NCBI GenBank assembly: GCA_000004695.1
Contig: CM000153.2
Location: 544,001 to 608,000, forward strand
Direction of reading: 5' to 3'
Origin: Dictyostelium discoideum
Lineage: Eukaryota
Length of the DNA stretch: 64,000 nt
Below, in pieces: positions 25,125-58,174 of this stretch. The position numbers were made by a program, and so were the translations under genes. The first letter of the stretch is position 1, and the number at the start of each line of letters is the position of its first letter. The notes under the pieces were generated by a model, which was not told the DNA's origin, did no database searches, and was given only the letters and a program-made list of their open reading frames with translations.

Positions 25125-25128
<4 letters not shown>

Positions 25129-28100
25129 CTATATTGATTTTCATTTTGAGATAAAGATAATAAAAGTTGTTCATCGAAATGTTTACCAAAATTAACATCT
25201 TCAGATAGACCTTTTCTCTTACGAGTTTTGATTAAAAGTTCACGAGCCAAATGAAGTTTTGGAGAAGGTTCTAATGGACGAAGTTTAATTGATTTATCTA
25301 AAGGATCACCTGGAACCACTTGCCAATGATCAAATGTTGAAAGACAGAAAGCTTGACCTTGAGTATGAACTCTAAGATCGGTTTCAAAACCATATGAATC
25401 CAATACGGGTATTAAAGCTTTTGTAATGTGAAGTGGTGTACCAGGTTTTGGCAAGTCATGAATGATATGACCACGACGACGTGTTAAAACATTTTCGATT
25501 GCATTGAGACAATCGATTGGTGAGATTACTTCAACTAGATAAACAGGCTCCATTAAACGTGGTGTTGATACTAAAAATGATGAATGTGTTACAGAACGTG
25601 CGGCAGGTACAATATGGCCACTGGATCTTTGAATTGGTTCAGAGGCAATGGTGGCATCCAATAGTTTGAATTTTACATTTCTAATTGGTTCATCAACCAA
25701 TGGACCTTCTTTAGTGGCCCATTGGAAGCCTCTAACCACGGAATCAGAGATGGATAATAGAAGGGATCTGTTCACTTCAGTTGGGAGGGTATCGTTCAAT
25801 AGGATATTTGGACCATTGATATCTGGACCAAATGCCCAAATCGAATTGGAGGCTAAAACATCCCAGTCGTACTTTGATTGGAAATATTCTGATCTCTTTT
25901 TCTTTGGCCAATCCAGTTTCACCATACCATTTTCAATATCATCGGCTAATCCATTCTCCAATGGTTCAGCGATCATTGTTAGACGATTCTTTTTATTTTG
26001 AGTATCAGCATAACATTTAATTGATGAAGTTTCAACGATTGTTTCTGTCAATGTGATAACTGGATCATCTACTTTGATTTCAATCTCTGTATACATTAAT
26101 CTAAGGTCATGTAAAATACAATCTAAATAAAGCTCACCTGTACCTAAAATAACATGTTCACCCGATTCCTCAGCCTTTGTAATTGCCAATGGATAGGATT
26201 TATCGATCTTTCTTAAACCATCCAACATCTTTGGTAATTCCGATGGATTGATTGGTTCGATTGCAACCTTACAAACTGATTTAGTTATGAAATGAAGTGG
26301 ACGGAAAATATGTGCCCTATTCTCATCCTCGTCAGATGATAAATCTTTTTTTGAGGTAATGGTGGCAGTCTTTACGATTGGACCATCGACACCATCTAAT
26401 AAAACCCACATACCTGCTTGTGCTTTTTCAATCTCGATTTTATAACGTGCTTCACCAATGAAAACGCCTTCACATTCACATTCTTCCATATCTTCTTCAT
26501 TATTATCTGGTGAGTATTTTTCACGTAAAACTCTAATGGATTGACCTTTACTAATGCTACCAGACATAATACGACCTAAACAATCGAATCCTTTACCATC
26601 GGGTTTTGATAATAACTTTGTGATATAAATTAGCAATGGACCCTTTGGATCACATTCCACCAATGACCTGCCATACTCACCATTCAATGGACCTGTATAG
26701 AGTGTTGTTGCTTTACGTCTAGCATTATCAATTGGTGATGGTAATGCTGCCAACATATCTACAAATGCATTTGATTTACCACCGAAAAATGAACCCAATA
26801 CAACTCTTAACAATGGTCTAATATCTAAATTATAAGTTTCTTTTGAAAGTTTAATACCCAATTCTCTTAGGGTTGCTTCAACCACTGGTTTCTCTTCACT
26901 AATTACAGTTGAATAAATCTTATAAATTGGATTTAAAATAAAGTGTACAAATGATCTTACATGTTCACCATTTCCTGATGCTTGTTTTCTAAACATACGT
27001 GTACTTTCATTAAAATAAAGATCACCCCATAATCTTTTAGCAAATTCACTACTCTTAAAACCACCACCATAAGTTTCAATATAAATATTTGCGAATGATT
27101 CTAAACTAAAACACCAACCCATTTCTGAACTTGCAAAAATAACATTACCTAATTCTGGTGATACTTTAATCTTTTCATTAGCACTACCTCTAGTATTACC
27201 ATCACTACCACCACTACCACTACCATGTGAACATAAATCTAAAATTGAATTAACTTCATCAATTGTATGTTTTAATTTAAAATATGCATCTACTGGTGGT
27301 AATTTTAATTCTAATATTAATCTATCCATTTTATTTATAACAACACAAATTGATAAACCTTCAGCAACAGCATGTTTAATTAATCTTTCAGTTTGCATCA
27401 TTACACCTTCTAATGCATCAATGATAATTACAGCAATATCTGATAATGCAATTGATGCAGTAACTTCATCTAAAAAGTTTGGATGTCCTGGTGTATCTAA
27501 TATATTAATTAAATATGATTTATCTTTTGAATTTGGTAAAACTAATGACATTGGTGTTGACTTTATTGATATTAATCTTTCTTGTTCATCATTTCTAGTA
27601 TCTGTATATCTCATCTATTTTTTTTTTAAAAAATTAAATTAAATTAATATATATATATATCTTTTTATAAAATATAATATATATTTATATACTTACTGGT
27701 TTTGAACTTAACCATTTCTTTTCATGAGTTTGTTGAAATAACATATCCATGAATGAAGTTTTACCATGATGTAATTGACCGATTAAAGAAACATTTCTAA
27801 TGAATTGTGGATATGTTGATAAATCGGTTAAAAATTGTTTAGAATAACTTGTTTCTGGATAATCTTTTTCAGTGATTGTAAATGATTTATTTTTCTTTGG
27901 ATCAATGATTGGTTTTGATAATGGTTGTGAATCTTCATCTTGTACCATAACTTCAACACCTTTATAAACATCTGATGCATCTGGAAAATATTGTTTATCT
28001 TCATGTAATACAATTGCTGATGTTGTTGAAATTTGTATATTATCTCTATCTATATTCATTTCATCACCACCATCATTATCTCCTGTTTCTTCTATATGTG

Positions 28101-28263
28101 CTTCATCGTCATTATATTGTTGTTGTTGTTGTTGTTGGTTTGGTTTTCTATCCTCTTCCTCCTCCTCTTCTTGTTGTTGCTGTTGTTGATCATATGTTAC
28201 TTCTTCATCTTCTAAACTTTCTCCAATATAATTACCAAATTCATCATATAAATTATCTGACAT
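25125..28263 (-). CDS. eftud2: U5 snRNP 116-kDa GTPase (Snu114/EFTUD2 homologue), about 1018 aa, two exons (27697..28263 and 25125..27614)
   Basis: Exon 1 is MSDNLYDEFGNYIGESLEDEE..HEDKQYFPDASDVYKGVEVMVQDEDSQPLSKPIIDPKKNKSF..IRNVSLIGQLHHGKTSFMDMLFQQTH. I compared this with my remembered human EFTUD2 segments MDTDLYDEFGNYIGPEL.., HEDKKYYPTAEEVYG.., QPLTEPIIKP and IRNVTLCGHLHHGKT. Exon 2 is MRYTDTRNDEQERLISIKSTPMSLVLPNSKDKSYLINILDTPGH..DRLILELKLPPVDAYFKLKHTIDEVN. The intron (27615..27696) is CCA|GTAAGT..aaaaatag|ATG. Confidence 0.88.
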
Positions 28264-28497
28264 TATTAATTATAATTCTATATGAATAAAAATAATATTA
28301 TATATATAAATATATATTTTAATTTACAAAATGTGAATGCTCAAATCACGCACACACCAATGAAAATTCACAAATAAAAAATAAATTTAAAAATAAAAAT
28401 AAAAATAAAAAAAAAAAAAAAAAATGAAAATTTCGAAAAGTGAAATTTTTACAATTAACATGTTGTAATTTTTTTTTTTTTTTCATTAATTAAATTA

Positions 28498-28539
<42 letters not shown>

Positions 28540-28565
28540 TAAATAAATAATAAAAATAAATAATA
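28264..28565. promoter_or_regulatory. Shared 302-bp divergent promoter region between the Snu114/EFTUD2 (-) and Aar2 (+) start codons
   Basis: The two genes are head-to-head, with an AT-rich spacer containing an (AAT)n array at 28501-28535. The regulatory role is inferred from the arrangement only. Confidence 0.4.
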
Positions 28566-30122
28566 ATGGATAATGAAAAAGCTAGAGAATTAAATGAAAA
28601 ATATGCAACATTATTAATATTAGATGTACCAGAAGGTTCAACAATTGGAATTGATAATAAAGTTTGGACGTCAGGTCCAATGTTTAAAGGTGTTAAAATG
28701 ATACCACCTGGTGTTCACATGTTTCATTGTACTTCTTCAAATGAATATGGTGATAGTGTTTTAATATCTAGTAGTTTTATATGGGTGAATGAAATCAATA
28801 ATAATAAAAAGAATAATAATAATAATAATAATAAAGATAATTATGTTGGTGAAGAAACTAATGGTTCACAACAAGTTTTCATAAAACGTTGGAATAAAGA
28901 AGAAGAAGATTTCTTTCCGGATCAGTCAATTACTGAACAAGAGATTCAATCTTATACATATGCAGTTAGAAACTTTGAATTTGATAAAAATCTTGCACCA
29001 TATCCATTCGATGGTACTCAAATTCAATGGAATTTACTAACATCACATATCACCAAATCCCTATTGGATAGAATTTTACCAATTTCAAATATCATAAATG
29101 GAGATTCATGTTCATATGATCAACAACAAAATAGTGCTTCTTCAAAAAAAGAAAAAAAACTTTTAAATGATTTAGATTTAAAATTAAAACAATTTAATGA
29201 ATCAAGAGGATCACCCTCAACAAGTAGCACCACCACCACCACCACCACCACCACCACCACCAGTAGTACTACTAATAATAGTAAATCAAAGAATTGGGGT
29301 GTACCATATTTTTCAAAAATACCAAAAAATCCAATAATTCAAAATTCAACAGCAACGACAACAACAGGTAATAATAGTATTGATATTAGTAATTTAAGTA
29401 AATGGAATATTGATAAATCTGAATGTATTGAATTTATAATTAATAAATATTATAAAGATAATGAAATGGATTTATTAGGTGAAATTGAATTTTGTTTTGT
29501 GTTATTTATATTTGGTATGACATGGTCAGGATTTCAACAATGGAAAGAATTGGTGACGTTGTTTCTATCATGTGATGAATTAGTTTTAAAGAAACCAATA
29601 CTTTTTATTGAATTTTTTAAGATATTAAAAAATCAATTACAAGAAGCACCAAATGATATGTTTGAATCGGAATTGTCAAATAGAGTATTCATTAAACCAT
29701 TACTAAAACAATTCATTGAATCAGTTTATAATCCTGAATTTACAAATCTTGAACAATTATCACCAATTCAATTACAATTATTTAAAACAATAATTGATTT
29801 AAAAAATTATGTTTCAAATAAATTTAATTGGAATTTAAATTTATTTAATCAAATTAATTTTAATAATAATTATAATGAAAATAATAATAAACCATTTGGA
29901 ATTAAAAAAGAATATAATGAAAATAATAAAAATAAAGATGATGATGATGATGAAGATGATGATGATGATGAAGAAGAAGATAATAATAATAATAATAACA
30001 ATAGTAATGAAAAATCAATTAATTATCAACAACAAAATAACTATGACAATGAAGATTATGATAGTGAAGATGATGAATATAAACCTGTATTAGTAATGGA
30101 TACTGATATGAATTATTTGTAA
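28566..30122 (+). CDS. aar2: AAR2 homologue (U5 snRNP assembly factor, Prp8-binding), 518 aa
   Basis: The N-terminus [41 protein letters not shown] was compared with my remembered human AAR2 segment [51 protein letters not shown] matches LDQFLGPYPY. A central [20 protein letters not shown] block is present, and the tail is acidic Asp/Glu. It is a single exon. Confidence 0.75.
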   Translation: [518 protein letters not shown]

Positions 30123-30407
30123 ATAAATTTTTTAAAAAAATAAAATTATATTTTTTTTTTTTTTTTTTTTTTTCAGTTTTAATATCAAGATTCTTAATAA
30201 AGTATTTTTTTTTTTTTTTTTTTTTTTACTAAAAAAACATTAACCAAAATAAAAATTTAATTTAATTTAAATTTAATTAAATTATTATTTTTATTTTTTT
30301 TTTTATTTTTTTTTTTCAATTTTTTTTTTTTTTTTTTGTTTTTTTTTTTATTTTTTTTTTTTTTTCCCAATATATTGAAACCTTCATTTAATATTATGTA
30401 ATAAATA

Positions 30408-32993
30408 ATGACGGATAATAAACAATCCTCAATACCTTCTTCCCCACCTATTGTGGTACCAACAACTACAACAGATATTAATTCATTTACATCTTCTCCA
30501 ACCTCAACACAAGGTTCAATGACACCAAACCCAAATGTTATTATACCAACACAACCACCAACACAACCAATAACTCAATCAAATTCAACATCTACTCCTT
30601 CTTCTTCTTCTTCATCTTCAAATAAAACATTTGAATCAATATTAGAATCATGGAAATTATTTAATATTGATAAAAAAAAGAATGAATTTGGTGATAATGT
30701 AACACAAATTGGTGCATTAAAAGAAGATTGTCTAAAGAGTAGAAAAGTATTAGCAAAACAAACACAAGATTTTAAAAAGTTTACAGATGATGAAAAGATT
30801 AAACAATTTGGATCACTTTTAAAACTTTATCAAGATGAAGTTGATAAACTCACCAAACGTAGTAAATTCACCGAGACAGTATTCCTTGGTATGTATAAGG
30901 ATTTGAATGAGATATCAGATCCTGTACCTGCATTGAGTGCAGCATTGGAGGAATGCTCAAAAGTTGATCAAACCACTAAATTAGAGATAGAGAATAGAAA
31001 ATTACAAATGCAGCTAACCGATTTCAAAAAGGAGTTTCAAGAGATTCAAAATCAAGAAGTCACAATCCGAAGATTGGAAGATAAAATCAAAGAGATGAAT
31101 TCCGAGCGTTCCGAATTCATTTCAATGGATAAATTGAATTTAAAAGAACAAGAGTTGAAACAAGAATTTCAACAACAGCTACAAGCTTCGAAACAACGTG
31201 AACAACAATTACAAAAACAAAATGACCAATTACAAGATGAACTTACCAAAATCTCCATTACAAATAATCAAATTCAAAATCAACTATTGGATATTAAAAC
31301 CAAATACGAGGATGAATTGCAATCTAAACATTCAGAGATTGAAATGCTAACTGTTGAATTCGATAGAGTTCAATCTAAACTCACCACACTTCAACGTGAG
31401 AATCTATCAATTCGTGAGGAATCAATGGTTGAAAAGAATTCCCTAACACCAATGGTTAAAAGAGTAGCCGATTTAGAGTTGGAAATGTTACAAAAAGAAA
31501 CTGAAACCTCTAAATTGGTCGACCAAATTCAAGAGTTAAAAACTCACATTTCAACACAACAAGATGAGAAATCAAATCTTTCAAGACTTTATGAAATTGA
31601 AAAGGAAAAAGTTGAAAAACTTGATAAATACATTCAAAATAATCCATCACCTTCTGAGGTTGAATTAATTAAAAAAGAACTATTAACCTTAAAAGCAATT
31701 GTTGATCAAGATGAAATTAATAAAGCAATAATTGATCAAGAAAAAGATAATAATCAAAATAATACTACTAATAACACTGGTGGTGGTAGTGATAAACTAT
31801 TAAAAGATAAAAATAGACAATTAGAAAATGAATGTACACGTTTACGTCTTTTAACAAATACACAAGAATCTGAATTAATTGAAAAGAATTTAGCAATTGA
31901 TGAATTACAAAAAGTTAAAGATGAACAATTATTATTAATTCAAAGATTAGAAGAAGATTTATCAAATGGTGGTGTTATTAATGGTTTAAATTCAAATGGT
32001 AATGCTGGTTCTTTAGTTTATCAACAACAACAACAACAACAACAACACCATCATCATTTAAATCATCATCATCATCATAACTCATTATCATCATCACAAT
32101 TACAATCATCAAATAAAGATATAATGGATATTTCTGACCTTTTACCTACAAATACAACAAACAATACAACAATTAATACATCACTATCATCATCATCATC
32201 ATCAAATAATAACTCACCATTAAATATTGGTACTAATAATAATAATAACAGTGTAAATACATTAATAAGATCATCAAATGAATCATTTTCAAATTCACCT
32301 CAACAAGTTGGTGCTGGTAATATTGTACAATCAAAAGATGACAAAATGTTAGATATTGTAATAAGTCAACGTGATAGATTTAAAACAAAGATTGTAGAAT
32401 TAGAGAGTGATAAAAGTAAACTTGAAAAACAACTAGATTCATGTCGTCAAGAATTATCATCATTAAAAACTGATAATATTAAATTATATGAAAAAATTAG
32501 ATTTTTACAAAGTTATGATAAAAATAAATCAGGTGGTGGTGGCATCAACAATGCCAATAAAGAAATTCATAGTAAAAGAAATAATAGTGGTTTTGAAAAA
32601 TCATATGATGTTGAAAGAGGTTTAGATATTCCTTCCTCTTCCTCATCATCATCATCTCAAGGTGGACCTGAAACTGAAGAGAAATATGGTAAACTTTATG
32701 AAGAATCAATAAATCCATTTTTATCATTCAATAAAAAAGAGAAATATCGAAGATATAGAGAGATGAATACAGCTGAAAGGGTGATTTTAAATGGTTCAAG
32801 ATTTTTCCTATCAAATAAATACAGTCGTCTATTCCTTTTCATATATTCTGTCCTACTTCATCTTATGGTATTTCTTACACTCTATAGATTAGCAACAATC
32901 ACAACTGAACAACACGAAATGGGTTTTGGTAATATACATCAAACTCCTCCACTACCTCAAAAAGATATTGTTGATAGTATAATAGAACAATAA
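30408..32993 (+). CDS. CASP-type golgin (CUX1/CASP family coiled-coil Golgi membrane protein), 861 aa, with a C-terminal transmembrane anchor
   Basis: The N-terminal domain ILESWKLFNIDKKKNEFGD..KLTKRSKFTETVFLGMYKDLNEISDPVPALSAAL..NQEVTIRRLEDKIKE was compared with my remembered human CASP segments MFQYWKRFDLQQLQ.., [31 protein letters not shown] and NQEVTIKALKEKIRE. A long coiled coil follows. The C-terminal FLSNKYSRLFLFIYSVLLHLMVFLTLYRLA matches the conserved CASP TM segment. Confidence 0.7.
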   Translation: MTDNKQSSIPSSPPIVVPTTTTDINSFTSSPTSTQGSMTPNPNVIIPTQPPTQPITQSNSTSTPSSSSSSSNKTFESILESWKLFNIDKKKNEFGDNVTQIGALKEDCLKSRKVLAKQTQDFKKFTDDEKIKQFGSLLKLYQDEVDKLTKRSKFTETVFLGMYKDLNEISDPVPALSAALEECSKVDQTTKLEIENRKLQMQLTDFKKEFQEIQNQEVTIRRLEDKIKEMNSERSEFISMDKLNLKEQELKQEFQQQLQASKQREQQLQKQNDQLQDELTKISITNNQIQNQLLDIKTKYEDELQSKHSEIEMLTVEFDRVQSKLTTLQRENLSIREESMVEKNSLTPMVKRVADLELEMLQKETETSKLVDQIQELKTHISTQQDEKSNLSRLYEIEKEKVEKLDKYIQNNPSPSEVELIKKELLTLKAIVDQDEINKAIIDQEKDNNQNNTTNNTGGGSDKLLKDKNRQLENECTRLRLLTNTQESELIEKNLAIDELQKVKDEQLLLIQRLEEDLSNGGVINGLNSNGNAGSLVYQQQQQQQQHHHHLNHHHHHNSLSSSQLQSSNKDIMDISDLLPTNTTNNTTINTSLSSSSSSNNNSPLNIGTNNNNNSVNTLIRSSNESFSNSPQQVGAGNIVQSKDDKMLDIVISQRDRFKTKIVELESDKSKLEKQLDSCRQELSSLKTDNIKLYEKIRFLQSYDKNKSGGGGINNANKEIHSKRNNSGFEKSYDVERGLDIPSSSSSSSSQGGPETEEKYGKLYEESINPFLSFNKKEKYRRYREMNTAERVILNGSRFFLSNKYSRLFLFIYSVLLHLMVFLTLYRLATITTEQHEMGFGNIHQTPPLPQKDIVDSIIEQ

Positions 32994-34427: not shown

Positions 34428-34834
34428 ATGGCAGCCCTCATATTGAGAACCCTTTTAGATAACAACGTTTTTAGTAGTAGTGACTACATACATACGATAA
34501 AAGACCCACTTTCAACTAGTATGGTCGAAGTTTCAGGAAATCCACAATCTTGTGGTGTTTCAGAAGCATTTTCTTCACCATCATTGAAGAAAGCTGATGT
34601 TTCACTTACTTTTGGCTCCAGTCAAGAAATCTCCTATGCCGCAATGTCGGCCCCATTAAATGCCGAGTTCGTAAGATTTGCTATCAAGCACAAGTCGTAT
34701 TCCTGATGAAATTGCCCCCACTGATGTCAACAAAACCGAACTGGATTTATCCACCAACAACTTTGGAGTACCATTGGCTGATGTTGTTCTTCCTTCTTCC
34801 TCCTCAACAACATTATCACCATCAATCGTTTCAG

Positions 34835-34878
<44 letters not shown>

Positions 34879-35892
34879 GCCATCAGTTCTGAAGAAATCA
34901 TAACTTCAAAGGGTGGAATAAAATCCGGAGCAGGAGAGTTACCTTTCTCTATAGTTTATGGTTCAGCTTTTTCAAAGACACCAGAAATTGTATCCTTCCA
35001 ACAACCAACTCAAAAACAAATCAATGATTTCCTTCAAATGAAATCTGATGCCACTAGAGTTGTTACATCTGATGGATACATCTTTAGAGAAATTTTCAAT
35101 CCTGATCATGATGATGGTTTCAAACAAGCCCTCGAAATGTATGGTTCAAGTTTCTTTGAACCAACAGAGCCAGGTAAAAATCACCTTCATACTTTATGCA
35201 ATAGAGGTCTTTATCGTATGATGGTAATGGAAGATGATAAAGGTTTAGTTTTAGCTTGTGCTTTTGTAAGTAAAAAAAAAAAAAAAAAAACTAACAACAA
35301 TAATAATAATTATATTCTCTATAATCTTCCAATCAATTTAAATATTAACATATTTTTATTTATTATTTATTATTTTTATTAGATTGTCGAAGTACATGCT
35401 TATAAATCCTACCATATGGATTATCTTGCAGTTAGACCAGGTATTAGAGGTGGTGGTTTAGGTGGAAAATTCTTTAAACAATTAACCACACACTTACGTA
35501 ATGAACAAAAGTATTTAATCATTACATTCGAAAGTGAACCAAAATTGGTGCCATGGTATCTCAGAATGTCTTGTCTTCATCTTAATGTAGTTAGTGATCA
35601 AGTAACCTATGAAAATGGTGAAACCTTTTTCTGGTGGTTATTAGTCGTTCCATTGGGTAAAATCATTGACGATGGCTCTGATGCTGACACTGATTCAGAT
35701 TCTGAACATCCTACTAGCGCTCCATCAACTACTGCACCCAACTATGCATTACCATTATCATTAACAGAAAAACAAAGAAATAGATCCTACATCCTCTACA
35801 ACGAAAGTGGTGTTTCATATGAATTCAATCAACAAACCATTAATGAAATCGCTCAATATTTACTTACTTTTATGTCTGATGCTAAAAAATAA
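34428..35892 (+). CDS. GNAT-family N-acetyltransferase-like protein. The coding region has an apparent +1 frame break near 34675-34706, then exons 34678..35265 and 35383..35892.
   Basis: Exon B carries the GNAT acetyl-CoA motif DYLAVRPGIRGGGLGGKFFKQL (R/Q-x-x-G-x-G/A). The intron (35266..35382) is TTT|GTAAGT..ttattag|ATT. The N-terminal 82 codons (MAALILRTLLDNN..VRFAIKHK, from acgATGG at 34428) are in frame 0 and the rest is in frame +1. The only in-frame stop between them is the TAA inside gtaaga at 34672-34674. There is no Met in the downstream frame before residue 115 or so. Confidence 0.55.
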
Positions 35893-56576: not shown

Positions 56577-58174
56577 TTATAATTTTGAATTAATGAAATT
56601 TGAAAGTGATAAATTATTATTATTATTATTATTATTGTTATTATTAATAGTATTATTATTATTAATACCACCAATTGGTAAAGTTGTTACAGTTGAATTA
56701 TCAGATAATGATTTTTTATATTTATCTTGATATAATTCAATATAAGATTTTTGAAGATAATTATTTTCCAAACCTAATTTTTTACCAGCTTCTTGAACAG
56801 AGGTTGCATCGAAACCTTTGATTTGAACAAATGTTTGACCCAATTCTTCAAGTTCATCATAAGAGATAATGATTTTACCATCTTTAAAGATTGTTGATTT
56901 TCTATGAATGATTGCAACCATTTGATAGCCCAAGGACATTAGACCACCCAACATATTGACACCAACGACGAAATCGACACGTGGTGAAATGATGAAAGGA
57001 CCTTCTTTAATCTCCTCACTAAACATAATGCTATATTGACCATCGGCATTACGAACACGAATCCAATCACATGATGATGAGTTTGCAAAAGTAGTATTTG
57101 GTGGAATTAAATAGATGTCATAGTAACGTGCTGTGTTCTCTTGAATGGTGGATTTATTTAATACTGAATGAATCATGTCCACTGTAACACCTTGTTTAAC
57201 AGATTTTAAAATATAGATTGGATTTAATAGACCACCGAATGGGTTAAACTTATTGACCACTTGAATCTCGGCCAATTGTAAATCAGGCTCAATGAATGCT
57301 TTATACATTGGGTAAACGGTATCGGTGATTTGTTGTAGTGATTCGTGTGGTTGTTGACCAGTTCTATGAACATCTCTAAAAATACGTTTAATCAAATCGA
57401 AATGAACACCACCAGAGATCGATACTCTTAAATCCAATAAATGACGAATCTCTTCATGTAATGCATAGATACCTTCAATTAATAATACTTTGGATTCTGG
57501 TGGTTGTACTCTCTTGTATGCGTATCTACCACTCTTTGTAAAATCATATAATGGTAAATCAGTTGGTTTATTGCTAATTAAATCACTAATATTCTTTTTT
57601 AATAATTCAAAATCAACTAATCTATAATCATCATAATTCTCTTCAATAATTTGTCTTGAACTATCTAAATAATTATCTAATGAAATTAAACTAAAAAATT
57701 TTATAATTATAATTATTAGAAATTTTATTATCTCTTTCAAAAAATATATATTTTGTACATACATTGATTTTGGTAAAACAGAAACGATTTTTTGAGCAAT
57801 TGAAGTTTTACCAGCTCCTGATGGTCCAGCAATACCAACTACGATTACACTACCTTGACTCTTTTTTCTTATTGATTGAATTGCTCTAACTGCTAAAAAG
57901 AAACCTTTATCAAATGACTAGTAAATAAAGTAAATGAAAAAAAAATTAGATAAACTTTATTTATTTTCACACTATTATCAAAATAAAATAAAAAAAAAAA
58001 AAATAATAAAAAAATTATTTCTTCTTTTTTTATTTTTTTATTTTTCATAATAAAATAAATAATAATAATAATAAAAGTTTTTAATATACTTACAAGTGTA
58101 TCTTTTAATGGTTTAATTGTATATCTATCATCTTTATCAGGTCTTGGAATAACCTCAATCTCTAAACTGTCCAT
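56577..58174 (-). CDS. Uridine kinase/phosphoribulokinase-family P-loop kinase-like protein with a long C-terminal extension (possibly a CYTH-type domain), about 449 aa, three exons (58094..58174, 57763..57917, 56577..57690)
   Basis: Exon 1 is MDSLEIEVIPRPDKDDRYTIKPLKDTL, ending CTT|GTAAGT. Exon 2 is SFDKGFFLAVRAIQSIRKKSQGSVIVVGIAGPSGAGKTSIAQKIVSVLPKS; it has the G(A/G)xxSGKT(S/T) P-loop typical of uridine kinases and ends AT|GTATGT. Exon 3 starts I|LISLDNYLDSS..LPLYDFTKSGRYAYKRV..VLLIEGIYALHEEIRHLLDLRVSISGGVHFDLIKRIFRD, following the uridine-kinase LD.FY / D....GR.. pattern. A roughly 230-aa C-terminal extension follows. Confidence 0.6.

What the first reader, a model, noticed from the sequence alone, without database searches (positions are those of the whole stretch)
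25125..30122. Head-to-head pairing of two U5 snRNP genes (Snu114/EFTUD2 and Aar2) across a 302-bp shared promoter
The U5 snRNP GTPase (EFTUD2/Snu114) and the U5 assembly factor Aar2 act in the same U5/Prp8 maturation pathway. Here they are divergently transcribed from start codons only 302 bp apart (28263 and 28566).

This arrangement would allow co-regulation of a structural subunit and its assembly chaperone from one bidirectional promoter. That kind of functional clustering is uncommon in eukaryotes.
Basis: partly seen in the sequence, partly recalled or inferred. Interest (0 to 1): 0.5.

Follow-up and report, generated by a model that had tools for sequence, protein, structure and literature searches.

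The report
Conserved head-to-head U5 snRNP gene pair
In the social amoeba Dictyostelium discoideum, the spliceosome GTPase gene (EFTUD2/Snu114) and the gene for its assembly partner Aar2 sit back to back 302 bp apart; this arrangement is kept in several distantly related social amoebae but not outside them, which makes it a real though unspectacular example of a conserved divergent gene pair.

Summary
The window is D. discoideum AX4 chromosome 4. The minus-strand gene is eftud2 (DDB_G0283359; two exons, 82-nt intron; 1018 aa, 100% identical to XP_639111). The plus-strand gene is the Aar2 orthologue (DDB_G0283361). Their ATGs are 302 bp apart.

The head-to-head adjacency is also present in:
- a second D. 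discoideum isolate, D. citrinum and D. firmibasis
- D. purpureum
- Polysphondylium violaceum
- Tieghemostelium lacteum

Spacers there are 173-354 bp. The genes on both sides differ beyond the D. discoideum clade, even though the flanking spacers are equally short.

In Heterostelium album the two genes are still divergent, but an Integrator-subunit-14 gene lies between them. They are unlinked within 10 kb in Acytostelium subglobosum, Cavenderia fasciculata, Balamuthia and a chytrid. None of 28 metagenomic AAR2 loci carries EFTUD2.

Group-4 spacers share a 20-nt block and a second block, with a poly(dA) and a poly(dT) run at fixed distances from the eftud2 ATG.

Co-expression could not be tested. 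I read this as a compact bidirectional promoter region coupling two partners of one assembly intermediate. It is a new member of a known kind and of moderate interest. A frozen chance juxtaposition is not excluded.

The parts
25125..27614 (-). eftud2 (Snu114) exon 2, including the stop codon; GTPase domain remainder and EF-2-like domains II-V
   Evidence: ORF list. Pfam GTP_EFTU, D2, EFG_III, EFG_IV and EFG_C. The spliced product is 100% identical to XP_639111.
27615..27696 (-). eftud2 intron, 82 nt, GTAAGT...TAG, phase 0
   Evidence: Read from the sequence. Removing it reproduces the AX4 protein exactly.
27697..28263 (-). eftud2 exon 1: acidic N-terminal EFTUD2 domain and the P-loop start of the GTPase domain; ATG at 28263-28261
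   Evidence: Pfam PF16004 EFTUD2, 2e-34, profile positions 1-124. Orthologues align from residue 1.
28264..28565 (.). 302-bp ATG-to-ATG spacer (90% A+T); holds both 5' leaders and the putative shared promoter region
   Evidence: The equivalent spacers are 255, 303, 256, 354, 243 and 173 bp in L010, D. citrinum, D. firmibasis, D. purpureum, P. violaceum and T. lacteum.
28356..28375 (.). Conserved block 1, ACCAATGAAAATTCACAAAT. It lies on the eftud2 side of the poly(dA) run, so it may sit in the eftud2 5' leader.
   Evidence: Invariant in AX4, L010, D. citrinum and D. firmibasis. The two flanking control spacers share only low-complexity runs. Its 13-nt core AAAATTCACAAAT is also in the D. purpureum spacer (3 of 1000 shuffles reach this length). 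It is not repeated in the window above chance.
28407..28424 (.). A18 run, which reads as T18 on the eftud2 coding strand; candidate oligo(dT) element just upstream of the eftud2 transcription start
   Evidence: The run starts 140-146 bp from the eftud2 ATG in all five group-4 genomes. Its role is inferred from the classical Dictyostelium promoter layout (TATA, oligo-dT, cap site), which is my own knowledge and was not tested here.
28432..28457 (.). Conserved block 2, TTCGAAAAGTGAAATTTTTACAATTA (invariant core TGAAATTTTTACA at 28441-28453). It lies between the two homopolymer runs and is the candidate truly shared core.
   Evidence: It is not repeated in the window above chance.
28469..28483 (.). 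T15 run on the Aar2 coding strand; candidate oligo(dT) element just upstream of the Aar2 transcription start
   Evidence: The T run starts 194-209 bp from the eftud2 ATG in all five group-4 genomes. Its distance to the Aar2 ATG varies from 29 to 119 bp.
28498..28533 (.). (AAT)12 microsatellite in the presumed Aar2 leader
   Evidence: The AX4-versus-L010 length difference (302 vs 255 bp) falls in this 3' (AAT)n / A+T-rich part of the spacer (alignment).
28566..30122 (+). Aar2 orthologue (DDB_G0283361); single exon, 518 aa, including the stop codon
   Evidence: Pfam AAR2_1st 3e-39 and AAR2 3e-40. Human AAR2 7pjh_A, 2.4e-32. Dictyostelid orthologues found. Gene identifier.

Best explanation
This is a genuine, anciently linked, divergently transcribed pair of U5 snRNP genes. 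The two core promoters are packed into one very short A+T-rich region.

**Proposed mechanism**
- A central conserved core of about 45 bp (28425-28468) is bracketed by a poly(dA) run and a poly(dT) run.
- These runs form a single nucleosome-poor region.
- Transcription starts outwards from it: leftwards into eftud2 and rightwards into Aar2.
- Both housekeeping genes are therefore open and expressed together.
- Snu114 and Aar2 join Prp8 in the same cytoplasmic U5 assembly intermediate, so coupled output is a plausible benefit.
- The two promoters are interleaved, so any breakpoint between the genes would damage one of them. Together these effects have kept the pair intact while both neighbours were exchanged.

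**Status of each step**
- Shown: gene identities, geometry, conservation pattern, group-4 sequence footprints.
- Inferred: transcription start positions, nucleosome depletion, co-expression, selective benefit.
For: **Identities and geometry**
-.

**Conservation of the head-to-head pair**
- D. purpureum: 354-bp spacer.
- P. violaceum: 243 bp.
- T. lacteum: 173 bp.
- D. citrinum, D. firmibasis and a second D. discoideum isolate.

**Neighbours changed while the pair stayed**
- The flanking genes differ in D. purpureum, P. violaceum and T. lacteum.
- The AX4 flanking spacers are just as short: 397 bp convergent and 285 bp tandem.
- Sucgang et al. list eftud2 + DDB_G0283361 as a two-gene block whose neighbours map to other D. 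purpureum scaffolds.
- Synteny is reported as not observed between dictyostelid groups outside group 4 (PMC5097433).

**Depth of the linkage**
- In H. album, which lies on the other main branch, AAR2(-) and EFTUD2(+) are still divergent with one gene between them.
- The linkage therefore most parsimoniously dates to the dictyostelid ancestor, put at about 600 My.

**Footprints in the spacer**
- A 20-nt complex invariant block and a 13-nt one are found. The control spacers share only homopolymers.
- A 13-mer is shared with D. purpureum (3 of 1000 shuffles).
- The A-run and T-run lie at fixed distances from the eftud2 ATG in five genomes.

**Functional and general background**
- A PRPF8-AAR2-EFTUD2 cytoplasmic complex is described (PMC13338715, PMC5461031).
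- Conserved short-spacer divergent pairs tend to be functionally related (PMC2871058).
Against: - No expression or transcription start data could be obtained, so co-regulation is untested.
- The arrangement is not needed.
  - IntS14 is inserted between the genes in H. album.
  - The genes are unlinked within 10 kb in A. subglobosum and C. fasciculata.
- No spacer sequence conservation is detectable beyond group 4.
- Block 1 lies on the eftud2 side of the poly(dA) run. It may be an eftud2 leader element rather than a shared one.
- Divergent pairs are generically more stable than other orientations. Conservation alone therefore does not prove selection for co-expression.
Confidence: 0.5

Rival explanations
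1. Frozen accident. The two genes became neighbours by chance in an early dictyostelid. They have stayed together only because a break inside a spacer of 170-350 bp that carries two essential promoters is nearly always harmful. There is no benefit from co-regulation, and the functional relation is a coincidence picked out after the fact.
For: - With about 100 spliceosome genes, 0.8 adjacent pairs are expected by chance (KEGG lists 96 spliceosome genes).
- Across all pathways, a few same-pathway neighbours per genome are expected (inference).
- Divergent and short-spacer pairs are generically the best-conserved class (PMC2871058).
- The pair has been interrupted or dissolved in three dictyostelids without loss of either gene.
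- It is absent in Balamuthia, Spizellomyces and 28 metagenomic loci.
Against: - For the specific U5 module the chance expectation is only 0.0005-0.011.
- Breakpoints hit both equally short flanking spacers repeatedly but never the central one.
- Linkage survives in both main dictyostelid branches although inter-group synteny is otherwise not seen.
Confidence: 0.38
2. Two independent, merely abutting promoters with different regulation. Each gene has its own elements on its own side: block 1 and the A-run for eftud2, the T-run and leader for Aar2. The transcripts are not co-ordinated.
For: - The conserved features are asymmetric. Distances are fixed relative to the eftud2 ATG, but the distance to the Aar2 ATG varies from 29 to 119 bp.
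- Block 1 is on the eftud2 side.
- For lncRNA/mRNA divergent neighbours in D. discoideum, bidirectional promoter activity was rejected as a general driver of co-expression (PMC5295588).
Against: - Only about 45 bp separate the two homopolymer runs, and this stretch holds conserved block 2. That leaves little room for two independent upstream regions.
- Both products are constitutive splicing factors and are expected to be expressed in the same cells (inference).
Confidence: 0.12

Closest known systems
HSPD1/HSPE1 (Hsp60/Hsp10) head-to-head pair with a shared bidirectional promoter
   Same: Two proteins that act together in one assembly or chaperone pathway. They are encoded divergently with a short spacer, and the arrangement is conserved across many species (used as the example in PMC2871058).
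   Different: - HSPD1/HSPE1 is conserved far more widely and has experimentally shown co-regulation.
- The pair here is confined to Dictyostelia as far as sampled.
- Co-expression is untested here.
- The pairing was lost or interrupted in three of the sampled dictyostelids.
Conserved divergent pairs of functionally related genes in fungi and metazoa (e.g. ribosomal protein L13/S16; histone H2A/H2B)
   Same: Short intergenic distance, divergent orientation, functional relatedness, and conservation beyond the general level of synteny (PMC2871058).
   Different: - Those pairs encode stoichiometric subunits of one particle.
- Here one partner (Aar2) is a transient assembly factor that leaves before the mature U5 snRNP forms (own knowledge; PMC13338715 and PMC5461031 were seen here by title and abstract only).
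PLEKHJ1/SF3A2 bidirectional pair (human)
   Same: A spliceosomal gene driven from a bidirectional promoter region (mentioned in PMC2871058).
   Different: The human partners have no known functional link. Here both belong to the U5/Prp8 maturation pathway.
Human and yeast EFTUD2/SNU114 and AAR2 loci
   Same: Orthologous genes.
   Different: From my own knowledge the genes are on different chromosomes in human (17 and 20) and S. cerevisiae (YKL173W, YBL074C). This was not tested here. It is consistent with the absence of linkage in Spizellomyces and Balamuthia.

Membership tests
EFTUD2/Snu114 (U5 snRNP 116-kDa GTPase) | Acidic N-terminal EFTUD2 domain preceding the GTPase | tested here: met
   PF16004, 2e-34, 119 bits against a cut-off of 32, full profile length.
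EFTUD2/Snu114 (U5 snRNP 116-kDa GTPase) | EF-2-like five-domain body that is closer to Snu114 than to eEF2 | tested here: met
   GTP_EFTU, D2, EFG_III, EFG_IV and EFG_C. hSnu114 scores 1176 bits over the full length against 610 bits for eEF2. The protein is 100% identical to the annotated AX4 protein.
EFTUD2/Snu114 (U5 snRNP 116-kDa GTPase) | Physical membership of the U5 snRNP and binding to Prp8 | not testable with these tools
   Would need biochemistry in Dictyostelium.
AAR2 (U5 snRNP assembly factor) | AAR2 N-terminal domain plus C-terminal repeat region | tested here: met
   PF20981, 3e-39, and PF05282, 3e-40; both far above their cut-offs.
AAR2 (U5 snRNP assembly factor) | Sequence similarity to an experimentally characterised AAR2 | tested here: met
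   Human AAR2 chain 7pjh_A, E = 2.4e-32.
AAR2 (U5 snRNP assembly factor) | Binds the Prp8 RNase H-like/Jab1 domains and is released before Brr2 joins | not testable with these tools
   Known for yeast and human (own knowledge; PMC9629490 seen by title and abstract only). Not examined for Dictyostelium.
Bidirectional-promoter gene pair | Divergent orientation with less than 1000 bp between the genes | tested here: met
   302 bp ATG to ATG. The definition is quoted in PMC2871058.
Bidirectional-promoter gene pair | Shared cis elements that act on both genes | tested here: inconclusive
   Conserved blocks exist in group 4, and one lies between the A and T runs. Whether any element acts in both directions was not testable.
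Bidirectional-promoter gene pair | Correlated (or anti-correlated) expression of the two genes | not testable with these tools
   No expression values for both genes were found in the accessible supplements.
Evolutionarily conserved, functionally linked divergent pair | Adjacency retained beyond background synteny | tested here: met
   - Retained in group 4, the violaceum complex and group 3, while the flanks changed.
- Linked in H. album.
- Inter-group synteny is otherwise reported as absent.
- Not retained in A. subglobosum or C. fasciculata.
Operon / polycistronic unit | Same-strand genes transcribed as one RNA | tested here: not met
   The genes are on opposite strands and point away from each other.

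The most novel reading that the evidence does not exclude
The pair is a selected co-regulation unit for U5 snRNP biogenesis that arose in the dictyostelid ancestor. One minimal bidirectional promoter sets the Snu114:Aar2 ratio for the cytoplasmic Prp8-Snu114-Aar2 intermediate. The Heterostelium arrangement (Aar2 <-> IntS14 -> EFTUD2) would then be a remnant or extension of a small snRNP-biogenesis gene cluster. That would be a rare eukaryotic case of pathway-level gene clustering for the splicing machinery.
Probability: 0.2. Interest if true: 0.55.

Novelty: new member of a known kind. Interest (0 to 1): 0.3.

Why it matters
If the two genes are truly co-regulated, this would be a clean and very small natural bidirectional promoter: about 45 bp of core inside a 302-bp spacer. 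It would couple a spliceosome subunit to its own assembly factor.

This is useful in two ways.
- It is a test case for why some eukaryotic neighbours stay together for hundreds of millions of years.
- It is a compact dual-output promoter for Dictyostelium genetics.

The natural 'experiments' are already there. The pair is intact in groups 3 and 4, split by one gene in Heterostelium, and fully separated in Acytostelium and Cavenderia. This allows a direct comparison of expression coupling with and without adjacency.

It does not change what is known about U5 snRNP biogenesis.

Tried and rejected
- **Expression data.** I searched supplements of six Dictyostelium transcriptome and genome papers for DDB_G0283359/DDB_G0283361 or the gene names, and the full-text library for the identifiers.
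  - Only eftud2 turned up, in a KEGG spliceosome gene list.
  - No values were found for both genes.
- **More Aar2 homologues from other Amoebozoa.** A profile search returned only the sequences already known, probably because low-complexity words dominated the candidate set. The last context look-up went to a chytrid instead.
- **Hidden RNA gene in the spacer.** There are no Rfam matches at E <= 1 in 24700-30500 and no tRNAs in the window. Rejected.
- **Bacterial-type promoter/terminator scan.** Matches were at or below the shuffle expectation, and the scan is irrelevant to a eukaryote.
- **CCAAT box as the shared element.** It is invariant in D. discoideum, D. citrinum and D. firmibasis. It is not kept in D. 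purpureum, where only the adjacent AAAATTCACAAAT core survives. Not adopted.
- **The two conserved blocks as general window-wide motifs.** Their occurrences are not above chance.
- **TTGATTGAT motif.** It appears in both H. album spacers and upstream of A. subglobosum EFTUD2, but it is frequent throughout those loci (9 and 18 copies in 23 kb). It is a generic repeat, not a pair-specific element.
- **A larger U5 cluster in the window.** No other splicing gene was found among the large ORFs. The WD40 ORF at 62939-63817 matches generic WD40 proteins, not SNRNP40.
- **Heidel et al. 2011.** This is the source for the lack of inter-group synteny. It is not held in the library, so the statement is cited second-hand from PMC5097433.


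Full report
**What is there**

The window is 22% G+C and carries poly-Asn/Gln ORFs typical of Dictyostelium.
- On the minus strand, ORFs 25125-27614 and 27685-28263 join through an 82-nt GTAAGT...TAG intron (27615-27696).
  - The product is 1018 aa and 100% identical to D. discoideum AX4 XP_639111/Q54R72, 'U5 small nuclear ribonucleoprotein subunit'.
  - Pfam finds the diagnostic EFTUD2 N-terminal domain (2e-34) followed by GTP_EFTU, D2, EFG_III, EFG_IV and EFG_C.
  - Against solved structures it matches human Snu114 over its whole length at 1176 bits, against 610 bits for eEF2.
- On the plus strand, 28566-30122 encodes a 518-aa protein.
  - It has both AAR2 domains (3e-39 and 3e-40) and matches human AAR2 chain 7pjh_A at 2.4e-32.
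- Both start codons are backed by orthologues that align from residue 1.
- The ATG-to-ATG spacer is 28264-28565, 302 bp, 90% A+T.
- Table S2 of Sucgang et al. 2011 gives eftud2 (DDB_G0283359) at chr4 569125-572263 and DDB_G0283361 at 572566-574122.
  - The window is therefore chr4 544001-608000, and the Aar2 gene is DDB_G0283361.

**Is the adjacency conserved?**

Using the Aar2 and EFTUD2 orthologues found, I fetched their genomic contexts. The same head-to-head arrangement, EFTUD2(-)/AAR2(+), occurs in the following genomes.

| Species | Spacer (bp) |
|---|---|
| Second D. discoideum isolate (L010) | 255 |
| D. citrinum | 303 |
| D. firmibasis | 256 |
| D. purpureum | 354 |
| Polysphondylium violaceum | 243 |
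| Tieghemostelium lacteum (group 3) | 173 |

- Within the D. discoideum clade the neighbours are also conserved: the poly-Asn protein on one side and the CASP homologue scdA on the other.
- In D. purpureum, P. violaceum and T. lacteum the genes on both sides are different.
- Two genes from elsewhere in the 64-kb window reappear close to the pair in other species. This is a sign of local rearrangement around an intact pair.
  - A PRK/CYTH kinase (56577-57764) reappears on the EFTUD2 side in D. purpureum.
  - An acetyltransferase-like gene (34678-35892) reappears on the EFTUD2 side in P. violaceum.
- Sucgang et al. list eftud2 + DDB_G0283361 as a two-gene block ('Block 807'). Its neighbours map to other D. 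purpureum scaffolds.
- In Heterostelium album (group 2, the other main branch), tblastn shows that an unannotated-by-Pfam 506-aa gene at L005 6025-7614(-) is Aar2. EFTUD2 is at 10001-13109(+).
  - The two genes are still divergent.
  - One gene lies between them, a bona fide Integrator subunit 14 homologue whose three Pfam families all score above their cut-offs.
- The two genes are not within 10 kb of each other in:
  - Acytostelium subglobosum
  - Cavenderia fasciculata
  - the amoebozoan Balamuthia
  - the chytrid Spizellomyces
- None of 28 metagenomic Aar2-encoding contigs carries EFTUD2. Eleven of them have 1.7-6 kb of upstream sequence.
- The linkage is found in both main dictyostelid branches. 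The simplest history is an origin at or before the dictyostelid ancestor (about 600 My). One insertion followed in Heterostelium, and at least two separations followed in Acytostelium and Cavenderia.

**How unusual is that?**

- In one genome, not very unusual.
  - Intergenic regions average about 700 bp.
  - Roughly a quarter of neighbouring genes are divergent. Four of the 14 junctions in this window are.
- Random placement predicts 0.79 adjacent pairs among about 100 spliceosome genes. It predicts only 0.011 among about 12 U5-specific genes and 0.0005 within the Prp8/Snu114/Aar2 trio (KEGG lists 96 spliceosome genes).
- Allowing for a reader who would accept any same-pathway pair, a handful of chance cases per genome is expected.
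- Conservation adds weight.
[quoted passage not shown] Retention there means little.
  - Synteny is reported as not observed between groups outside group 4.
- An internal control is informative. The two junctions flanking the pair in AX4 are as short as the central one: 397 bp convergent and 285 bp tandem. Both were broken in D. purpureum, P. violaceum and T. lacteum, whereas the central spacer never was. Spacer length alone therefore does not explain the retention.
- A divergent spacer carries two promoters, however. Such pairs are the best-conserved orientation class in general. Constraint on interleaved promoters, without any benefit from co-expression, remains a sufficient explanation.

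**Anatomy of the spacer**

- I aligned the AX4, L010, D. citrinum and D. firmibasis spacers and searched for substrings common to all four.
  - One 20-nt complex block is invariant: ACCAATGAAAATTCACAAAT (28356-28375).
  - A second block is TTCGAAAAGTGAAATTTTTACAATTA (28432-28457), with invariant core TGAAATTTTTACA.
  - The two flanking spacers share only homopolymer-like strings.
- The 13-nt core AAAATTCACAAAT recurs in the D. purpureum spacer at a similar position (3 of 1000 shuffles reach this length).
- Nothing significant is shared with P. violaceum, T. lacteum, H. album or C. fasciculata.
- A poly(dA) run starts 140-146 bp from the eftud2 ATG, and a poly(dT) run starts 194-209 bp from it, in all five group-4 genomes. 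In AX4 these are A18 at 28407-28424 and T15 at 28469-28483.
- The distance from the T run to the Aar2 ATG varies from 29 to 119 bp. In AX4 versus L010 the extra length lies in the (AAT)n / A+T-rich tract.
- Dictyostelium promoters classically have an oligo(dT) stretch just upstream of the cap site on the coding strand. This is my own knowledge and was not tested here.
  - On that rule the two runs mark two outward-facing start regions only about 45 bp apart, with block 2 between them.
  - Block 1 would then lie in the eftud2 leader.
- The motifs are not general elements. Neither recurs in the window above chance.
- There is no Rfam family or tRNA in the region.

**Mechanism and rivals**

- Best reading (confidence 0.5): one compact, probably nucleosome-poor bidirectional promoter region couples two constitutive genes.
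  - Their products meet in the same cytoplasmic Prp8-Snu114-Aar2 assembly intermediate.
  - The interleaving makes the pair hard to split, and coupled output is a plausible bonus.
- Main rival (0.38): a frozen accident. The same physical constraint applies, but there is no functional benefit.
  - This is supported by the pair having been interrupted or dissolved in three dictyostelids and being absent outside them.
- Third reading (0.12): two abutting but independently regulated promoters.
- Co-expression is the decisive datum and could not be obtained.

**Comparison and novelty**

- The arrangement works like the known class of conserved, short-spacer divergent pairs that encode functionally linked proteins. 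Examples are HSPD1/HSPE1, H2A/H2B and L13/S16.
- It meets the geometric and conservation criteria of that class. Shared elements are inconclusive and co-expression is untested.
- It is not an operon.
- The adjacency itself is visible in public annotation and in a supplementary synteny table.
- No paper in the library mentions the gene identifiers, and none of the ten top-ranked Aar2/Snu114 papers listed concerns gene order.
- I rate it a new member of a known kind, with interest about 0.3.
- The most novel reading not excluded is a selected snRNP-biogenesis mini-cluster, hinted at by IntS14 in Heterostelium. I give it a probability of about 0.2.

Noticed in passing
L005 (Heterostelium album GL290988.1) 6025-13109: Three genes tied to snRNP biogenesis lie in a row: Aar2(-), an Integrator subunit 14 homologue(+) at 7858-9741, and EFTUD2(+). 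The spacers are 243 and 259 bp. IntS14 has no homologue in the window or in any other fetched locus.
   Followed up: partly
L004 (Cavenderia fasciculata GL883010.1) 8534-11595: Where Aar2 is not next to EFTUD2, it is head-to-head (243-bp spacer) with a DUF383/DUF384 protein. From my own knowledge this domain pair marks Hgh1, a chaperone of eEF2, which is the paralogue of Snu114. This may be coincidence.
   Followed up: no
L005 13230-19945 and L006 14311-20681: In both group-2 species EFTUD2 is followed by the same genes: a large convergent gene (an IF-2/eIF5B-like GTPase by Pfam in H. album), then Sybindin and ribosomal S6e. Synteny on that side is therefore kept within group 2, while the Aar2 side was rearranged in Acytostelium.
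   Followed up: partly
window 28498-28533: An (AAT)12 microsatellite lies just upstream of the Aar2 ATG. The AX4 spacer is 47 bp longer than that of isolate L010, and the extra length falls in this (AAT)n / A+T-rich tract. The presumed Aar2 leader is therefore length-polymorphic.
   Followed up: partly
L010 (GCA_054859355.1, labelled D. discoideum): This 'D. discoideum' assembly is only 94-98% identical in protein sequence to AX4 across Aar2, EFTUD2 and the CASP homologue. This suggests a rather divergent isolate or a cryptic species.
   Followed up: no
window 21011-24727 (+): A 1238-aa ORF made almost entirely of Asn, Gln and Ser runs, with no Pfam family. Only its C-terminal ~225 residues are conserved in L010 and ~160 in D. 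citrinum. It does not appear between DDB_G0283355 and eftud2 in the D. discoideum/D. purpureum block table (Table S2 excerpt).
   Followed up: no
L005 and L006 throughout: The repeat TTGATTGAT / (TGAT)n is very frequent near gene starts in the two group-2 loci: 9 and 18 copies in 23 kb. It is rare in group-4 loci. It may be a lineage-specific promoter or leader microsatellite.
   Followed up: partly
window 34678-35892 vs L002 3533-4567; window 56577-57764 vs L001 4895-6355: Two genes that lie 5 kb and 26 kb from the pair in AX4 sit within 3 kb of it, on the other side, in P. violaceum and D. purpureum respectively. Local inversions or transpositions have therefore shuffled the neighbourhood around the intact pair.
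   Followed up: partly
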